This document shows positions 3,001 to 9,000 of a stretch of DNA of 39,499 nt, piece by piece. Positions within the stretch are counted from its first letter, which is position 1, and the number at the start of each line of letters is the position of its first letter. The DNA is taken from the IMG/VR virus record IMGVR_UViG_2563366900_000004, one strand, 5' to 3'. The position numbers were made by a program. This DNA is from a virus (lineage: Duplodnaviria > Heunggongvirae > Uroviricota > Caudoviricetes).

Positions 3001-6000
3001 CGCTAACGATTAATCTCTGAGCGGTAACATCATCAGACGGTACTTTCTTCGCAATAATGGCGTAATTACCCTCAAGTTTGACTTCCGCGCGAACTTGTCC
3101 TGATGTACCTGCATGGACAGTCAGTGACTGGACGGCAACATCATCTGTGAAATCAACGGGTACAGGAACCGTCCTCACGCCTGACGTCGACATAAAAGTA
3201 GGAAGCGTTCTGTTAGGAGTGGCTCCGTAGACAAAATCCCTTGAAACAAATTCTTCCTGTTTAATTTTCACCCTGAAACAATACAAATCAGCCGGGTGAC
3301 CATCGTGAACATAAGGATATTTTCTGTTGTTATCCCCTATGCTCCATGGGTTTAGAAAGTCTTCCCCACCGAAAATGTAGTACAGCCAGTTGTCTTTGAT
3401 ACAAACTGAACCAACACCAACCGCAGAGTTAACTATTCCGCCCTGATAAATCTGATCAGTAACATTAACCCACTCTACATTATCCAGACTCCACTCATTG
3501 ACGTTAACTCTGGTCATAAATGTTCTTGGATAATTTCCTGCATAACGGTTATCAGGTTCTCCTCCTTCCCACTCACCAAATGCGCGCTCACTGCCAAAAA
3601 TAATCAGCTCATCGCCAACTTTGGCAAAAGGAAGGTTTGAGTGATGAACATTATTTGGGAAGCGAAGAGAATTCCATGATGTACCTAAATCAGAGCTTCT
3701 GTGCAATGAACTACCGGGTTGAGTACTTAATGTCCCCCTGGTCGTCAGATACAGAATGCCATCATAATATTTTACACATGGCTCAGATGCATTCGCCTCA
3801 TATTCTGCAGGTATGCGTCTGCGAACAAAGCTACCAGGAGAACCGAAAGCATCAGAGAAATAGAGTATCCCAAGCTCGCGTGGGCCAATATCACCATTAT
3901 GGTAGCCAACAGCAAAACTGTTATCGCTAATCGTCGCAAAACTGTGAATCTCAGTAACAGGAGTGCTTCCGTCAACAAAAGAAGGAATAGTTCCAAGACT
4001 GGTTTTTCTCCATGGTGACGAGTGAAATGATGTACCAAAACTCCAGTATCTACCCTCGTTATTCTGATCCACATCCTGGGTATTTTGCGTCGTAACTGTA
4101 AAAGTATTTTTATCAATAACAGTAGTCACCGTCATATTCCCGGTAACACCTGTAACACCAGAGTTTGAGAAGTTGACAAAATCACCAGCAAATAATCCGT
4201 GATCAGTAATGCGAATATAAGCGACTTGCTGATTTGCTGCTTTCGTTATACCACCATAAACGCGAAGGCTGCGACTCATTGGGCGATCCCACAACTCTGC
4301 AACCTGCAGTTTATTTCCGCTCACGGTCCGCGTCTCAATTACAGCAAAAAGGCGATTTCTGACAACCCCCATACTCATGCAGTGATAGTTAACTGTGGGA
4401 TAGTTTTCATGTAAATCTGTAAGCCATTCCGGCGTTGTCCAGGTCTTCCCGTCATCTCCTGAGCGAACCCATGCAACATGGAGGTTATTTACACCATGGC
4501 GGTCTCCAGCCATAAAAGGCGCATAGATGACATTGTCATATACAAACGTTTTATCCTGCGTCCAGGCGTTGTACCACGGTGTATCTGTAATTTTAAATAA
4601 CTCTCCCTGGATAAAATCTTCAGAAGCATAAAAAAGAGGCTGACCCGGTATTCTCTCAAATAAAAAACGAGCATTTTTAAATCGACTGACATCTGGAAGA
4701 GTTGATACTTTAAAAGTAAGCCCTCGCCCATCTATCTTTTCACCACCTGTTGCAACAGAAAGTAATTCTGATAGAGCTGATGTATCATCATGAACACCAT
4801 CACCAATAGCCCCCCAACCTCTTACATCATAACTGTCTCTCCATCTTGCTATCTGAAGTTTTGGGTATTTATTCGCTCCATCTGGGTCTTCTAATTGCTG
4901 CCGTAACTGATCAGGATCATACTTCAGCACATTCGGAAAATAGAACTGCTGTGTACCATACGCATCATAAACAGCCATAGAATGGCCTTGCACGGTTACG
5001 AACTTGGCAATCTGTCCGTTATATACCGGATATCCAGCGGCGTTAATGATGATTGGTTGCGAAACAGGAACGTGAGAACCATCTTCGTTCTCAACATAGA
5101 CCTGAATCTGGTTTTCAGGATTTACCGGGTCAGTGTCAATTTTACCGATATAAATTTTGCCATTAGCTACGGCTTTAAAAGAACGCGCCATAGTGAAGAG
5201 TTGCGAAGGCATACTCACTACAACATTGGCTGTAATGTCTGTCATTTAATTTGCTCCAGATACAAGGAATCGCCGCAGCATGGCTACGGTTGGCATTTAT
5301 TACATACCGAAACGGTACGATTGTTGATTTGTACAGTAGGTTTTACGATGCCATTCCACCCATTTGGTGAGGCATTGATGATGTACAGCAAATACGATGA
5401 GGCGCAGTTCCACTTGAGGCTTACACACGAGTTGCACGCTAAGATTAAGCAGCGTGCAAAAATGAATAACAGGTCTATCAATTCCGAAATTGTGGCTACG
5501 ATGGAAGAATCACTCTCCAAACCATCACCTGTAAGCGGGTATCGTGATGAAGAAGAGAGGCTGGCCTCATTAATCTCGGAACGAGTAAAAGAAGTTGCGG
5601 CTGAAATTCTAAGGAAAGAAAAAACCCGCGATTAAGCGGGTTTAGTTTTCATTATAAAATGTTACGCCACATTTGAGCCATGTAGCAGGTGTTGTAGTGC
5701 TTTAACGCCTTCAGAATTGTAACGGAACGCCTCTACCTGTTTGCTGGAATGCGCCGATTTATCCAGGAAGAACTTCCCGTACTGCTCAGTTTTGAGGTTG
5801 TTTGCGTTAGCAATGCGACCAATCTTGTTGGCCGTTACTCCAAGCTGCTCTGCAACCTCCCCTGCTGAGTAGTAATGCTCTTCTATTGCCGGAAGAGGTA
5901 TTGCATTAAAACCAACAAGCGGGTTGATTATACTTGCTGCCGCTGTCTGCTTTGCCTCAGGCGCAAGATTTGGCATCAGATCGAACAGATTGGTAACAGC

Positions 6001-9000
6001 TTCAACCGTCATTTTCAATGTTCGCGCTTGACGATACTCAACAAGTCCACTCGCTGATTTACCGCTTTTAATGTGCGCTTCTTGCATACTTTCAAGTTGG
6101 TCTACCAGTGAGCGGCGAACGGCTTTTGACTCGCGAGCGGCAACTCGCAATGCTTGCTTGATTGACATCTCAATGATAACCATCGAAGTTTTGTTCGCTT
6201 TTTGCACTACACTTTTTGTGTAGTGCTCTCCATCCAATTCATCTTCAATTTTCTCGATGAATTTGTTATTACGAACCTCCGGCTCACCGCACTGTCTACG
6301 AGCCTGATTTACCATCTCAAGCAGGCGCTGGCTGTCAATGGTTTTATCCGTGACAACGGATCCGATGTTTGCTACATTCTTAAAAGTCATTAGGCATTCC
6401 TTATGTGGTAGTAAGGGTGTGACATAGGCCGCCAGCAGCACACTGGCGGTTTTCTTTTTGCGCCGTCCGGCGCACCAATCAATGAATCCATTCCTCGCCG
6501 CGCAGTTTTGCCAGCATTGGCTGAGCGTTCTTTACGACAAAATTGTTGGTATCAAGATTCTTCATTTCACGAAGAAGTGATTTCTTGGTTTCTTCTGACA
6601 TATAGCGAGTCTCATATGCGATATCGTAAATCCTTCCTGAAAGCTCAGAACAAATTTGCTTCATTCCTGGGTAGATGTGTTTGCACATTTGTTGACTCTT
6701 CTCCATCCACAATTGTAAGTAGCAGAGATTAACCAGTTCTTCGTCAGTAAACTGTTTTGCAATCGGTGAGCATTCTGCCTGCCGATCCAAAATATCCAGC
6801 ACCCAGCGGCGGAACTCTTTGGCTACCGGAGTGCGAGCAAACATCGCGATTAGGTGGGCACCGCGTAGTGAGAAAACTCGCACTTTTTTGCGATAATTTC
6901 CTGAGGTACTCACTTCGAGTACCTGAGTCATTCCGGCGCTAAACTCATCGCTATACTTGTTATAAATCATTGTTACTGCACGACTATTTGCGTATTTAAG
7001 TGCAGATGCAATATTAGATGATGTAAACCAAACACCATGCATATCACGGGTGGGCACCAACTCAACTCCGTGGAAGTTGTAATCTGATTTTGCTACAATA
7101 TTCATGTTAGTTTCCTTGCATACGGTTACTGACATAGAGGCCCGGTTTGTGTTCGCGCACTGCCGGGCTTCACTATTTTTATGTCCTAGCATTCTTCTCT
7201 CCAATCAGTCCGTACACTTTTCTCAATTGATAAATAAGTTCCGTGTTGAACTGTCGACACTCTTTTTCTCCATTTCTTTCAATCGCCTTCCTTACATCCT
7301 CTGGGAAACGAACCTTGCGTTGATACATGTCTTTTGCTTTTTCCATCTCCACTCCTTAAATAGCCCCACTGTGGGGCAATTGAAATTGTCACACCGTGCG
7401 TCATTGAAGTCAACCCCACCGTGGGGCATAATTTACTTATTGTGAATTTTTCCTGTTTGGACTAATGGTATGAGTAGAGAAGACCCTCAACTTCGGATTA
7501 GGCTTCCTGTTGAATTAAAAAAAATAATTGAAGCGTCATCAAAACAAAATAATCGTTCTATGAATGCTGAGATTGTCACTCTGCTTGAGTTGGCGATTCG
7601 TGTTTGTCGTGATTTTGGGCCGGAGGATGGTCCTATCGTTCAGCAGTTTAAAGAACAACTAGATGCGATAAACAGAAAATATGATAAAATCGAGCATGAA
7701 AAACTTATACCTCAACTTTTAGAAATCATAGAAAAACAGAAAAAACAAGTAGATAAACTTATTAGCATGGTTGAAAGATCAATTCCTCTTTCAGAGGAAT
7801 ATAAGCAGAAATATCTTGGTGATGACAACAAAAAACCCACCTGACGGTGGGTTAATTTTTGCCTTTTTTGGACCATATTGACTACTCATAAAATGAGATC
7901 AATATTTAATCGCCCAATAACGGGTGTATGTTGAGGTATATCATGGCGAAAAAACCAGGTGAAAACACAGGAAAAAACGGCGGAATATACCAAGAAGTTG
8001 GCCCACGCGGCGGTAAGAAAGACAATTTTGCCACCGTCAAGGACAACGAAAGGCTTCCGCCAACAACAAAGCCAGGTCATGGCTGGGTATTGGATAAGCG
8101 AACTCCAGACAGCAAAAAGTAATAATCAAGCCGGGTCACTCCGGCTTTTTGATATGTCGCTCGCAGAACTCAACAAGCCTGCTCATTAAGTAGCAGTAAG
8201 TCTCATTGGCTCTTCCTGGTTCAACATCAACACCGACCCTTGAGCAGATATCGAATGCCATGTGAGCGCACTCATGGGCAATAGTAGATAGTTTGCCATT
8301 GAACACGCCTATCACATGCAAAACACCATTCTCGCTGCTCATTGTATGAGACGCTCCGTTGGCATCCGAGTCCTGCACGTCCACACCAAGTTTTTGATGC
8401 AGGCGTTGCCATTCTGGAAAGTCTCTACAAAACACAATTGTACCGCTCTCAAAGAGCGGAACGAGCATCTTTGGTACGTTTCCAATGTTAACTTTTTTCA
8501 TGGTATCCTGCTCAAAACTAAGGAGGTTGGTGTGAAGCGATGGTTCCTCATAATTACTGTTTTCGCGATCATTTACGCTATTTTCCCTGCATTAAAAGCA
8601 CCAATGCAAATAATTTCACTAGCAATAATTGCAATTGGTGCTTTCATTACAGTATCCGTACTTGTGTTTAAGGTTTTAAAGTTTTTAGTTTGGCTATCAA
8701 AAGATGATGGATGCAAAGTTCATCAAGAAAAAGAAGGCAAAATAACCAAAGTTGACTAACTGTCACTAGCGAGCCATGTAATAATCCCCGTGCGGGCAAT
8801 GGTTTTTGCTTCATCTGTTGATAGGGTTTTCTCCCATCTCTTAAATGCCCCAGATTGCATCAGTTTCCTTTCTATTGCGCGTCTCACTTCTGCTCTGTCT
8901 ACTGGTGCGTTTTGCAGGCGAAATAGCATTGATTTAAACTCAGGAGAAGACAGTAGAGCATCAGCAGCCTTTATCCTGCTTGTTTTCCCTGACATCAATG

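What the first reader, a model, noticed from the sequence alone, without database searches (positions are those of the whole stretch)
5378..7844. Expanded immI-like region with two Mnt-like repressors, an Arc-like gene and two antirepressor-like genes
P22 immI is mnt, arc, ant. Here two plus-strand Mnt-like RHH genes (5378..5635 and 7470..7844) bracket a minus-strand operon of an unlisted Arc-like ORF (55 aa), an antirepressor N-domain gene and a separate Rha/KilA-C-like gene. This points either to a split or duplicated antirepressor system, each arm with its own RHH repressor, or to nested regulatory control.
Basis: partly seen in the sequence, partly recalled or inferred. Interest (0 to 1): 0.6.

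Follow-up and report, generated by a model that had tools for sequence, protein, structure and literature searches.

The report
Mosaic P22-type antirepressor control region
This stretch of a P22-like E. coli K1 prophage is a patchwork version of the classic P22 immI antirepressor switch, carrying two different antirepressor-type genes in one operon plus a separate stand-alone Mnt repressor beside the tailspike gene; it is an interesting variant of a well-known, notoriously variable region, not a new kind of system.

Summary
All five genes are at or near the stated coordinates, and the palindromes at 7363-7427 are real.

The window is a CUS-3-like P22-type prophage with an endosialidase tailspike. 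The region is its "ant moron", between gene 16 and the tailspike.

It splits into two units.

**Distal unit (5622-7853): a complete P22-immI-like switch.**
- The 124-aa repressor has a Mnt-type N-terminal arm.
- Its operators share the CCAC-N-GTGG core of P22 Omnt, at P22 geometry.
- The minus-strand operon reads Arc-like, Ant1 (Bro-N + P22_AR_C, a complete protein), then Ant2 (Rha/KilAC-like fold).
- Each ant start is overlapped by a sar-like antisense RNA unit.

**Proximal unit (5291-5635): a stand-alone Mnt.**
- It is 40-45% identical to P22 Mnt.
- Its own palindrome, TACC-N5-GGTA, and promoter are laid out like P22 Omnt/Pmnt.
- It is the divergent neighbour of the tailspike gene in 72 of 80 related loci, with or without any ant gene.
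- It has no operator near Ant1 or Ant2.

The reading "each arm has its own repressor" is therefore not supported, and a frameshifted single ant gene is excluded. The idea of duplicated or tandem immI modules is partly right: relatives exist that carry two full modules.

Verdict: a new variant of a known kind, of modest interest.

The parts
5246..5290 (-). Conserved 'boundary sequence' just upstream of the tailspike start codon (5245). It contains a small hairpin, CCGUAGC-CAU-GCUGCGG.
   Evidence: It is 95-100% identical in P22, HK620, CUS-3 (annotated there as bsq1), Kapi1 and others. The stem co-varies in the alignment (CAGC/GCTG versus CATC/GATG). The fold is shown.
5305..5317 (.). O_85: the palindrome TACCGAAACGGTA, proposed operator of the 85-aa Mnt.
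   Evidence: It is the only TACC-N5-GGTA in the window. In 56 distinct intergenic sequences the arms are conserved while the centre and flanks vary. It changes together with the repressor's N-terminal arm. Its distances to the -35 box, the -10 box and the ATG (+10, +33, +67) are the same as for P22 Omnt/Pmnt/mnt.
5321..5349 (+). Proposed promoter of the 85-aa Mnt gene: TTGTTG, 17-nt spacer, TACGAT.
   Evidence: It is conserved across relatives, with TATGAT in the divergent group. It is colinear with P22 Pmnt (TTGAGA-17-TATCAT). It scores below the threshold of the consensus scan.
5381..5635 (+). Mnt85: a stand-alone Mnt-family RHH repressor (84 aa; an alternative ATG lies at 5378).
   Evidence: Pfam Arc 3e-15. 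It is 40% identical to P22 Mnt over the full length, including the C-terminal SKPSPVSGYR...ERLA region. tblastn hits the annotated mnt genes of P22-like phages. It is the divergent neighbour of the tailspike in 72 of 80 loci.
5622..5643 (.). Bidirectional intrinsic terminator between Mnt85 and Ant2. It ends both the ant operon and the mnt85 transcript.
   Evidence: One search reports it on both strands. Fold z-scores are -4.5 and -4.9.
5662..6390 (-). Ant2: a 242-aa Rha/KilAC-like antirepressor-type protein and last gene of the operon.
6350..6459 (+). sar2 candidate: an antisense promoter (GTGACA-17-TACATT with TG, 6350-6378), a roughly 70-75-nt transcript across the Ant2 start codon and Shine-Dalgarno sequence, and an intrinsic terminator (6426-6452 plus a T-run to 6459).
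   Evidence: Promoter and terminator were both found. The terminator and the TGn-T-A-x-x-x-T element are kept in all Ant2 loci even where the overlapping codons differ (TACATT, TAAATT, TAAAGT) and whatever gene lies upstream. The fold is two hairpins.
6479..7105 (-). Ant1: a 208-aa antirepressor with Bro-N and P22_AR_C domains.
   Evidence: Pfam Bro-N 2e-10 and P22_AR_C 5e-13; PHROG 245 'anti-repressor Ant' 5e-52. Residues 119-187 are 29% identical to P22 Ant residues 206-274. The C-terminal half is nearly identical to that of SPN3UB 'anti-repressor Ant', while the N-terminal Bro-N part is a different variant there.
7094..7175 (+). sar1: a homologue by position and structure of the P22 sar antisense RNA. 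It has an extended -10 (TGcTACAAT, 7091-7099) and a transcript of about 7106-7175, antisense to the arc-ant1 intercistronic region and the Ant1 ribosome-binding site.
   Evidence: It aligns with P22 sar: CATGTT.GTTT, TTACTGAC and the terminal hairpin are shared. It has the same two-hairpin fold, z = -5.2 against -5.6 for P22. Rfam RF00262 finds P22 sar (97.8 bits) but not this copy.
7179..7346 (-). Arc-like RHH protein (55 aa), first gene of the ant operon.
   Evidence: Pfam Arc 1e-3 (19.2 bits, just below the cut-off); PHROG 228 'Arc-like repressor' 1e-5. It aligns with P22 Arc and Mnt. It occupies the same position as P22 arc.
7363..7377 (.). O1: GCCCCACTGTGGGGC, an Omnt-type operator at the start point of the leftward promoter.
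   Evidence: Its centre lies 24 bp from the arc-like ATG, exactly as P22 Omnt lies from arc. It shares the CCAC-N-GTGG core with P22 Omnt.
7387..7403 (.). O3: TGTCACACCGTGCGTCA, an imperfect palindrome in the spacer of the leftward promoter. This is the position of P22 Oarc, so it is the candidate Arc-like operator.
   Evidence: Read from the sequence. Its centre at 7395 is exactly midway between O1 (7370) and O2 (7420). It is conserved in L098.
7385..7413 (-). Pant-like promoter: TTGACT-17-GACAAT with an extended -10 TG.
   Evidence: Both hexamers lie at the same distances from O1 as the P22 Pant hexamers lie from Omnt.
7413..7427 (.). O2: ACCCCACCGTGGGGC, a second Omnt-type operator. It lies just upstream of the Pant-like -35 box and inside the spacer of the rightward promoter.
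7404..7432 (+). Promoter of the 124-aa repressor gene: TTGAAG-17-CATAAT.
7470..7844 (+). RHH124: a Mnt-type repressor of the distal module. It combines a Mnt-like N-terminal arm (SREDPQLRIRLP) with a different, longer helical C-terminal region.
   Evidence: Pfam Arc 3e-7. The N-arm lines up with P22 Mnt ARDDPHFNFRMP. The N-arm and operator co-vary in a series across loci. L098 has the same N-domain and operators but an unrelated C-domain. About 20 full-length relative clusters exist in E. coli, Salmonella and Citrobacter.
7834..7853 (.). Bidirectional terminator after the RHH124 gene. From 7828 rightward the DNA is homologous to the end of P22 mnt and to ORF59a.
   Evidence: fold z = -3.7. The megablast match to P22 starts at window 7828.

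Best explanation
The region is the 'ant moron' of a CUS-3-like, P22-type prophage. It consists of two independent units.

**Unit A (5622-7853) works like P22 immI, with two payloads.**
- In the lysogen, the 124-aa Mnt-type repressor is made from its own promoter (7404-7432). It binds the two CCCCAC-N-GTGGGG operators, O1 at the start point and O2 just upstream of the -35 box of the leftward Pant-like promoter (7413..7385). This keeps the operon arc-like, ant1, ant2 silent. O2 also lies inside the repressor's own promoter, which implies autoregulation.
- On infection, or when repression fails, the operon fires. The Arc-like protein then shuts it down again, most likely at O3 in the promoter spacer.
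- Two short cis-antisense RNAs damp translation of each payload. sar1 covers the Ant1 ribosome-binding site. sar2 covers the Ant2 ribosome-binding site and start codon.
- Ant1 (Bro-N + P22_AR_C) and Ant2 (Rha/KilAC-like) are two unrelated antirepressor-type proteins. They presumably bind and inactivate C2/CI-type repressors, the prophage's own (32283-33005, HTH + S24 peptidase) and/or those of co-resident prophages.
- The operon ends at the bidirectional terminator 5622-5643. Only antiterminated late transcription continues to the tailspike gene.

**Unit B (5291-5635) is a stand-alone Mnt.**
- Its control region is colinear with P22 Omnt-Pmnt-mnt, but there is no Pant, arc or ant on the other side. 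The tailspike gene follows directly.
- Mnt85 binds only its own palindrome, O_85 (5305-5317). It does not control Ant1 or Ant2.
- Its most likely present role is one of two: a prophage-expressed DNA-bound insulator or roadblock in front of the tailspike gene, or an immI-type immunity factor left over from a proximal immI module.

**Shown versus inferred.** Shown are the genes, domains, palindromes, geometry, conservation and co-variation. Inferred are all binding events, transcription starts, antisense action and antirepressor activity.
For: **Gene content and domains:**

**Position:** the region lies between the gene-16 homologue and the endosialidase tailspike, as in P22 and as described for 'ant morons' (PMC2629481).

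**Geometry of the distal control region:** the distances from O1 to the arc-like ATG (24 bp), to the Pant-like -10 box (15-20 bp) and to the -35 box (38-43 bp) equal those from Omnt in P22.

**Operator and repressor co-vary.** Across loci, each N-terminal arm goes with its own palindrome:
- ARDDPHFNFRM with AGGTCCACCGTGGACCT
- SREDPQFKLRL with TGAACCACCGTGGTTCA
- GRDDPQFNLRL with AGACCACAGTGGTCT
- SREDPQLRIRL with GCCCCAC(T/C)GTGGGGC
- YSKYDEAQFHLRL with TACC-N5-GGTA

**O1/O2 are not Mnt85 sites:** JEP4 keeps Mnt85 and O_85 but has another Arc-like gene, a C2-like repressor and no CCCCAC palindromes.

**Mnt85 belongs with the tailspike, not the ant genes:**
- It is the divergent neighbour of the tailspike in 72 of 80 loci.
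- It is the only gene of the moron in Sf101.
- O_85 is unique in the window.
- The O_85-to-promoter-to-ATG spacing is identical to P22.

**Antisense RNAs:**
- sar1 aligns with P22 sar and has the same fold.
- The sar2 promoter and terminator were found and are conserved in every Ant2 context, even where the overlapping codons change.

**Ant1 and Ant2 are separate genes:** Ant2 follows an Ant1-type gene in 67 of 80 loci, but also stands alone behind an Arc-like or Mnt-like gene.

**Ant2 fold:** (KilAC/Rha antirepressor proteins, E = 3e-9), for the C-terminal winged helix.
Against: - Nothing was measured. No transcription start, binding or protein-protein interaction has been shown.
- The Arc-like protein is just below the Pfam cut-off.
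- Assigning O3 to Arc rather than to RHH124 rests only on position.
- sar1 is not recognised by the Rfam sar model.
- The sar2 fold is only weakly better than shuffles (z = -1.9), and its terminator stem never varies, so there is no co-variation support.
- Ant2 has no Pfam or NCBIfam family and only a medium-confidence model. It could be a DNA-binding regulator rather than an antirepressor.
- The Mnt85 promoter is weak by consensus and was not picked up by the scan.
- No full immI module with O_85 specificity was seen, so a target in trans is hypothetical.
- In the related phage Kapi1, a different mnt was not detectably expressed in lysogens (PMC12922286).
Confidence: 0.6

Rival explanations
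1. One reading: two parallel arms, each antirepressor gene with its own RHH repressor. The 85-aa Mnt would control Ant2 from the right-to-left end, and the 124-aa protein would control arc-Ant1. Alternatively, the two repressors would be nested on one promoter.
For: Two Mnt-like genes bracket the operon. Mnt85 and Ant2 are adjacent in many loci, and in phiKp_30 they travel together on one inserted segment.
Against: - The two genes are convergent and separated by a terminator.
- No minus-strand promoter and no TACC-N5-GGTA site exist upstream of Ant2, and O_85 is unique.
- Mnt85 keeps its place beside the tailspike in loci without Ant2, including Sf101 and VSe13.
- Ant2 occurs without Mnt85 in non-P22-like contexts.
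- In phiKp_30 the Mnt85 copy is truncated and lacks its DNA-binding strand.
Confidence: 0.06
2. The two downstream ORFs are halves of a single ant gene broken by a frameshift.
For: The genes are adjacent, on the same strand and in different frames. The Ant2 frame stays open across the spacer.
Against: - Ant1 already has both an N-terminal (Bro-N) and a C-terminal (P22_AR_C) domain, and it ends where its SPN3UB homologue ends.
- Ant2 matches PHROG 1726 from residue 1 to 242 and has 2109 homologues of the same length.
- Ant2 has no similarity to P22 Ant.
- Each gene occurs without the other.
- The spacer holds a conserved terminator hairpin and a Shine-Dalgarno sequence.
Confidence: 0.02
3. The 85-aa Mnt is a functionless relic of a deleted proximal immI module. 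It is carried along only because it lies next to the tailspike head-binding module and the boundary sequence.
For: No Pant-like promoter, arc or ant remains on its left. Relatives with a full mnt-arc-ant at this position exist (L102, L103, L163). A different mnt was not expressed in Kapi1 lysogens.
Against: - The ORF is intact in all 80 loci, spanning 64-100% identity.
- The N-terminal arm is nearly invariant and the palindrome arms are conserved, while the palindrome centre, the flanks and the protein's C-terminal half vary.
- It is the sole moron gene in the viable phages Sf101 and IME10.
Confidence: 0.17
4. Ant2 is not an antirepressor. It would be a Rha/KilA-like DNA-binding regulator or growth-inhibiting protein co-expressed with the true antirepressor Ant1.
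For: - Its C-terminal domain is a MerR/RacA/Xis-type DNA-binding winged helix.
- It has no Pfam antirepressor domain.
- JEP4 annotates the homologue as 'KilA protein'.
- In SPN3UB the gene after Ant1 is an unrelated ORF6N-domain 'transcriptional regulator'.
Against: - The best fold matches are proteins named antirepressor/KilAC.
- In L098, L157 and L166 it is the only payload behind an Arc-like or Mnt-like repressor gene, the place held by ant in P22.
- It carries its own sar-like antisense unit, as P22 ant does.
Confidence: 0.25

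Closest known systems
Phage P22 immunity I region (mnt, arc, sar RNA, ant) between genes 16 and 9
   Same: - It sits at the same genomic position.
- A Mnt-type repressor gene is transcribed divergently from an arc-first ant operon.
- An Omnt-type palindrome with the same CCAC-N-GTGG core lies at the same distances from the arc start codon and the Pant hexamers.
- A second palindrome lies in the Pant spacer, where P22 has Oarc.
- A sar homologue with the same two-hairpin fold lies antisense to the arc-ant junction.
- The operon ends at a terminator before the tailspike gene.
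- The DNA right of 7828 is homologous to the end of P22 mnt and to ORF59a.
   Different: - There are two Omnt-type operators instead of one, and the second overlaps the repressor's own promoter.
- The repressor has a different, longer C-terminal region.
- The antirepressor has a Bro-N domain instead of the P22_AR_N N-domain.
- A second, unrelated antirepressor-type gene with its own sar-like unit follows in the operon.
- A second, stand-alone Mnt with a different operator specificity sits between the operon and the tailspike gene.
'Ant morons' of P22-like phages (Villafane et al. 2008, PMC2629481), including CUS-3, which is annotated with two tandem mnt genes and one ant
   Same: This is the same highly variable insertion between gene 16 and the tailspike. 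Ten types were already described in 16 genomes. ST64T, ST104 and Para1 are described as carrying only mnt plus one gene. CUS-3, like this window, has an endosialidase tailspike and more than one mnt-like gene.
   Different: The layout here is Mnt85, Ant2, Ant1, Arc-like, RHH124. It is not the CUS-3 layout (ant, mnt, mnt, three further genes) and was not among the layouts I could read in that paper. The RHH124/Arc-like/CCCCAC specificity type is rare: 2 of the 80 Mnt85 loci, and no sequenced phage isolate has the full-length protein.
Escherichia phage JEP4, prophages of E. coli 55989 and MS10495, and Salmonella phage SPN3UB
   Same: JEP4, 55989 and MS10495 share the tailspike, Mnt85, Ant2, Ant1 and Arc-type order with a divergent repressor. 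SPN3UB, a lambdoid siphovirus, has a divergent RHH repressor, an Arc-like gene, an Ant1 homologue with an almost identical C-terminal half, and a second regulator gene.
   Different: - JEP4 has a C2-like (HTH) repressor and another Arc-like gene.
- 55989 and MS10495 have a 106-aa RHH with other palindromes.
- All three carry an extra 73-aa gene after Ant2 that is absent here.
- SPN3UB's second gene is an ORF6N protein with no detectable similarity to Ant2.
Multi-gene antirepressor operons under antisense-RNA control: phage P1/P7 immI (c4 RNA, icd, ant1/ant2) and phage N15 (antA, antB, antC).
   Same: An antirepressor operon with more than one payload and antisense-RNA control of translation.
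   Different: The proteins and RNAs are unrelated. There is no RHH Mnt/Arc layer in those systems. Here each payload appears to have its own cis-antisense RNA.

Membership tests
P22-type immI module (distal unit, 5622-7853) | Located between the gene-16 homologue and the tailspike gene, with the ant operon reading towards the tailspike. | tested here: met
   ORF map. The tailspike has a Head_binding domain plus endosialidase domains. The layout matches P22.
P22-type immI module (distal unit, 5622-7853) | A divergently transcribed Mnt-type RHH maintenance repressor, with a palindromic operator at the start point of Pant. | tested here: met
   Pfam Arc 3e-7. The N-arm SREDPQLRIRLP lines up with P22 ARDDPHFNFRMP. 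O1 lies at the P22 Omnt distances from the arc-like ATG and the promoter hexamers. N-arm and operator co-vary across loci. Binding itself was not tested.
P22-type immI module (distal unit, 5622-7853) | An Arc-type RHH protein as first gene of the ant operon, with its operator in the Pant spacer. | tested here: inconclusive
   The 55-aa protein scores 19.2 bits against Pfam Arc (cut-off 20.4) and 1e-5 against PHROG 'Arc-like repressor'. The imperfect palindrome O3 sits in the spacer, but its assignment to this protein rests on position only.
P22-type immI module (distal unit, 5622-7853) | An Ant protein built from P22_AR_N plus P22_AR_C. | tested here: not met
   Ant1 has P22_AR_C (5e-13) but a Bro-N N-domain, and only residues 119-187 align with P22 Ant. 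Ant2 has no similarity to P22 Ant.
sar RNA (Rfam RF00262) | Match to the Rfam covariance model at or above 43 bits. | tested here: not met
   P22 scores 97.8 bits. The window gives no RF00262 hit at E <= 10, even when only 111 nt are searched.
sar RNA (Rfam RF00262) | A roughly 68-nt plus-strand RNA antisense to the arc-ant junction, with a promoter in the first ant codons, two hairpins, and the second hairpin acting as terminator. | tested here: met
   It aligns with P22 and has the same two-hairpin fold, z = -5.2 against -5.6. The extended -10 lies at the same distance from the ant ATG. Transcription was not tested.
Mnt repressor family (85-aa protein) | An Arc/Mnt RHH N-domain plus the Mnt C-terminal (tetramerisation) region, about 82 aa in all. 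| tested here: met
   Pfam Arc 3e-15. It is 40% identical to P22 Mnt end to end, including SKPSPV.GYR..ERLA, and 45-64% identical to the annotated mnt genes of P22, ST64T, ST160 and Sf101.
Mnt repressor family (85-aa protein) | Represses Pant and so keeps ant silent in the lysogen. | tested here: not met
   No Pant-like promoter, arc or ant lies on the operator side. The tailspike start is 66 bp from the operator centre. O_85 is unique in the window.
Mnt repressor family (85-aa protein) | Tetramer binding one 17-bp symmetric operator. | not testable with these tools
   This needs purified protein, tested by gel shift, footprinting and sedimentation.
Phage antirepressors (Ant1, Ant2) | Binds and inactivates a CI/C2-type repressor. 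| not testable with these tools
   Only domain and fold resemblance is available. The window's own repressor candidate (HTH_3 + Peptidase_S24) is at 32283-33005.
KilAC/ANT domain proteins, Pfam PF03374 (Ant2) | Match to the Pfam KilAC/ANT or Rha HMMs. | tested here: not met
   No Pfam hit at E <= 0.1 and no NCBIfam hit. Only fold-level similarity was found.

The most novel reading that the evidence does not exclude
Two readings are not excluded.

1. The stand-alone Mnt beside the tailspike gene is not a relic. It would be a conserved, prophage-expressed DNA-bound gate whose single operator, 66 bp from the tailspike start, controls how much transcription enters the (endosialidase) tailspike gene, or which protects the lysogen against incoming relatives.
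2. Ant1-sar2-Ant2 is a conserved dual-antirepressor cassette with one cis-antisense RNA per payload. It would let one prophage inactivate two different classes of repressor and so cross-induce co-resident prophages.
Probability: 0.15. Interest if true: 0.55.

Novelty: new variant of a known kind. Interest (0 to 1): 0.35.

Why it matters
P22 immI is a textbook case of layered control by two ribbon-helix-helix repressors and an antisense RNA.

This variant shows how the same logic is rebuilt from exchangeable parts. Repressor N-arms are swapped together with their operators. Repressor C-domains and antirepressor N-domains are swapped independently. A second payload arrives with its own antisense unit.

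The N-arm and operator series found here gives five natural pairs that share, or depart from, the CCAC-N-GTGG core. That is a ready-made data set for the recognition code of Mnt-type proteins.

If the two antirepressor-type proteins have different targets, such cassettes would matter for cross-induction among the many prophages of pathogenic E. coli. The stand-alone Mnt next to the tailspike gene is widespread and has no assigned function.

Tried and rejected
- **Rfam on the region.** Only weak chance-level hits appeared (RyhB-like and leader-like hits at the terminator, SymR-like for sar1), and there was no sar hit.
- **A second copy of the Mnt85 upstream motif in the window.** 13-mers with up to 2 mismatches gave only chance matches, and TACC-N5-GGTA occurs once.
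- **A recurrent TACC-N5-GGTA in many related loci.** It lies inside the gene-16 coding sequence, is absent from the window, and was judged a coincidence.
- **A minus-strand promoter at O_85 driving the tailspike.** The best candidate, TCAACA-17-TGTAAT, lacks the essential A at position 2 of the -10 box in all variants, so I rejected it.
- **A promoter for Ant2 in 6391-6478.** None was found.
- **Programmed frameshifting at the A-AAA-AAG run in the Ant1-Ant2 spacer.** It lies after the Ant1 stop codon, so it is irrelevant.
- **Ant2 against solved structures by sequence.** Nothing was found.
- **Ant2 profile against SPN3UB gp22.** No similarity.
- **afdb50 fold library.** It was not available.
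- **BTP1 antisense RNA STnc6030 (PMC7067206) as a possible equivalent of the mnt85 transcript.** That RNA has no ORF over 60 aa, and no sequence link was found in the phage collection.
- **Literature search for Sf101 and Mnt.** No paper was found.

Full report
**Context.** The window is a P22-like (Lederbergvirus-type) prophage whose late operon runs on the minus strand.
- The 981-aa protein at 2300-5245 (-) has the P22 head-binding domain followed by endosialidase domains and the S74 chaperone. A hexapeptide acetyltransferase gene lies at 1398-1733. This is therefore a CUS-3-like K1 phage.
- The finding lies between that tailspike gene and the gene-16 homologue (8756-10879). This is the place of P22 immI and of what Villafane et al. 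called the "ant moron". They describe it as the most variable part of the late region, with ten types in sixteen genomes (PMC2629481).

**Observation.** All the ORFs exist.
- Mnt85: 5378/5381-5635 (+).
- Ant2: 5662-6390 (-), 242 aa.
- Ant1: 6479-7105 (-), 208 aa.
- Arc-like: 7179-7346 (-), 55 aa.
- RHH124: 7470-7844 (+).
- Pfam Arc matches Mnt85 (3e-15) and RHH124 (3e-7). It matches the 55-aa protein at 1e-3, just below the cut-off, and PHROGs agree.
- Ant1 is Bro-N plus P22_AR_C, so it is a whole antirepressor rather than an N-domain fragment.
- Ant2 has no Pfam or NCBIfam family. It matches PHROG 1726 "anti-repressor" over its whole length and has 2109 same-length homologues.
- The medium-confidence Ant2 model (pLDDT 68) resembles KilAC/Rha antirepressor proteins (BFVD, E = 3e-9). 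Its C-terminal domain is a MerR/RacA/Xis-type winged helix.
- The palindromes at 7363-7377 and 7413-7427 are the only two CCCACNGTGGG sites in the window.

**The distal unit copies P22 immI.** Reading P22 next to the window shows matching geometry.
- P22 Omnt is AGGTCCACCGTGGACCT, centred 24 bp from the arc ATG. O1 is GCCCCACTGTGGGGC, also centred 24 bp from the arc-like ATG, and shares the CCAC-N-GTGG core.
- The scan finds a leftward promoter TTGACT-17-GACAAT (7413..7385) and a rightward one TTGAAG-17-CATAAT (7404-7432). The leftward hexamers lie at the same distances from O1 as the Pant hexamers lie from Omnt.
- An imperfect palindrome, O3 (7387-7403, centre 7395), lies in the Pant-like spacer, where P22 has Oarc.
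- O2 (centre 7420) lies upstream of the -35 box and inside the rightward promoter. The three centres are 25 bp apart.
- The arc-ant1 junction aligns with the P22 sar region and folds into the same two hairpins (z = -5.2 against -5.6). The Rfam sar model finds P22 (97.8 bits) but not this copy.
- From 7828 rightward, the DNA is homologous to the end of P22 mnt, its terminator and ORF59a.

**Who binds what.** Across related loci, the N-terminal arm of the Mnt-type protein and the palindrome at the Omnt position change together.

| N-terminal arm | Palindrome |
|---|---|
| ARDDPHFNFRM | AGGTCCACCGTGGACCT |
| SREDPQFKLRL | TGAACCACCGTGGTTCA |
| GRDDPQFNLRL | AGACCACAGTGGTCT |
| SREDPQLRIRL (RHH124, L098) | GCCCCAC-N-GTGGGGC |
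| YSKYDEAQFHLRL (Mnt85) | TACC-N5-GGTA |

- L098 has the RHH124 N-domain and the same three sites but an unrelated C-domain.
- JEP4 keeps Mnt85 at 98% identity but has another Arc-like gene, a C2-like repressor and no CCCCAC sites.
- I therefore assign O1 and O2 to RHH124, not to Mnt85. Assigning O3 to the Arc-like protein is by position only.

**The 85-aa Mnt is a separate unit.**
- It is 40% identical to P22 Mnt end to end, and tblastn hits the annotated mnt genes of P22-like phages.
- In 80 IMG/VR loci (64-100% identity) it is the divergent neighbour of the tailspike start in 72, at 122-262 nt. This holds whatever lies beyond it: nothing recognisable, only gene 16 (as in phage Sf101), or Ant2-Ant1-Arc plus one of several repressor types.
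- In 56 distinct intergenic sequences, the arms of TACC-N5-GGTA and the downstream TTGTTG-17-TACGAT are conserved, while the palindrome centre and the left flank vary.
- The distances from the palindrome centre to the -35 box, the -10 box and the ATG (+10, +33, +67) are identical to P22 Omnt/Pmnt/mnt.
- On the other side there is no Pant-like promoter. There is only the 45-bp boundary sequence shared by P22, HK620 and CUS-3 and then the tailspike ATG.
- O_85 is unique in the window.
- Loci L102, L103 and L163 carry a full P22-type mnt-arc-ant next to the tailspike and, beyond it, the Ant2-Ant1-Arc-repressor module. Tandem immI modules therefore exist, and the window looks like that layout with the proximal module reduced to mnt alone.
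- The role of Mnt85 remains inferred. Candidates are a roadblock or insulator before the tailspike gene, residual immunity in trans, or a relic.

**The two payloads.**
- Ant2 follows an Ant1-type gene, ending 91-92 nt upstream, in 67 of 80 loci. These include non-P22-like phages.
- Ant2 is also the only payload behind an Arc-like or Mnt-like gene in L098, L157 and L166.
- Ant1 occurs in SPN3UB followed by an unrelated ORF6N protein.
- Ant1 and Ant2 are in different frames and each is complete, so a frameshifted single gene is excluded.
- The spacer holds a plus-strand intrinsic terminator (6426-6452). A plus-strand promoter with an extended -10 (6350-6378) lies inside the first Ant2 codons.
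- Both elements are kept in every Ant2 context. The -10 keeps T-A-x-x-x-T and its TG even where the encoded residues change.
- This predicts a second, sar-like antisense RNA over the Ant2 start. The support is conservation only: the stem never varies and the fold z-score is -1.9.

**Comparison and verdict.**
- The same gene order, with other regulatory specificities and an extra 73-aa gene, is annotated generically in E. coli 55989, MS10495 and phage JEP4.
- Of 5426 complete E. coli genomes, 960 match part of the region.
- CUS-3 is already annotated with two mnt genes.
- The RHH124/Arc-like/CCCCAC type is rare: 2 of the 80 Mnt85 loci, no phage isolate with the full-length protein, and about 20 protein clusters.
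- The region is thus a new variant of a known and notoriously mosaic system.
The mechanistic reading "one repressor per arm" is not.

Noticed in passing
L005 (Klebsiella phage phiKp_30) 3956-5112: A segment equal to window 5438-6500 is inserted among early genes. It holds a 5'-truncated Mnt85, the terminator, Ant2, the sar2 unit and the last 20 nt of Ant1. It is flanked by a perfect 50-bp direct repeat (3956-4005 and 5063-5112). It looks like a recent illegitimate or repeat-mediated insertion of the cassette.
   Followed up: partly
window 5246-5290: The 45-bp sequence upstream of the tailspike start is 95-100% identical in P22, HK620, CUS-3 (annotated bsq1, 'boundary sequence'), Kapi1, epsilon34 and others. 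It contains a small hairpin whose stem co-varies among relatives (CAGC/GCTG versus CATC/GATG). P22 has two copies of the motif upstream of gene 9.
   Followed up: partly
window 2300-5245 and 1398-1733: The tailspike is a P22 head-binding domain fused to a complete endosialidase (K1-capsule depolymerase) with the S74 chaperone. A hexapeptide-repeat acetyltransferase gene lies downstream. The window is therefore a CUS-3-like K1 prophage, and that gene is possibly a neuO-like capsule O-acetyltransferase.
   Followed up: partly
L102, L103, L163 (IMG/VR contigs): These prophages carry two complete antirepressor modules in tandem between gene 16 and the tailspike. One is a P22-type mnt-arc-ant. The other is a module made of a C2-like repressor, an Arc-like gene, Ant1, Ant2 and the 73-aa gene.
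   Followed up: partly
L001 (JEP4) 4418-4639; also E. coli 55989 and MS10495: About half of the related loci have a 73-aa gene of unknown function directly after Ant2, overlapping its stop codon. It has no Pfam match. It is absent from the window, where only 26 bp separate Ant2 from Mnt85.
   Followed up: no
window 6204-6226 and 6904-6924: There are perfect inverted repeats inside the coding regions: GCACTACAC-TTTTT-GTGTAGTGC in Ant2 and AGGTACTC-ACTTC-GAGTACCT in Ant1. Their function is unknown. JEP4 has a related repeat at the Ant2 position.
   Followed up: no
window 6450-6474 (minus strand): Just after the Ant1 stop codon, the mRNA reads GCGCCGGACGGCGC (a hairpin, 6460-6473 on the plus strand), then CAAAAAG, a dnaX-like slippery heptamer, then the strong sar2-terminator hairpin. 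Because it lies downstream of the stop codon, it is probably only the complement of the terminator's T-run.
   Followed up: partly
window 7103-7174 (+): The sar1 region gives a weak match to the SymR antitoxin RNA model (21.8 bits, E = 0.02 when only 111 nt are searched). SymR is another cis-antisense RNA that covers a ribosome-binding site. The match is probably structural resemblance only.
   Followed up: no
L170 (CUS-3) 5006-5535: CUS-3 is annotated with two adjacent mnt genes on the same strand, next to a single 307-aa ant and no arc. More than one Mnt-like gene per ant moron therefore has a precedent.
   Followed up: no
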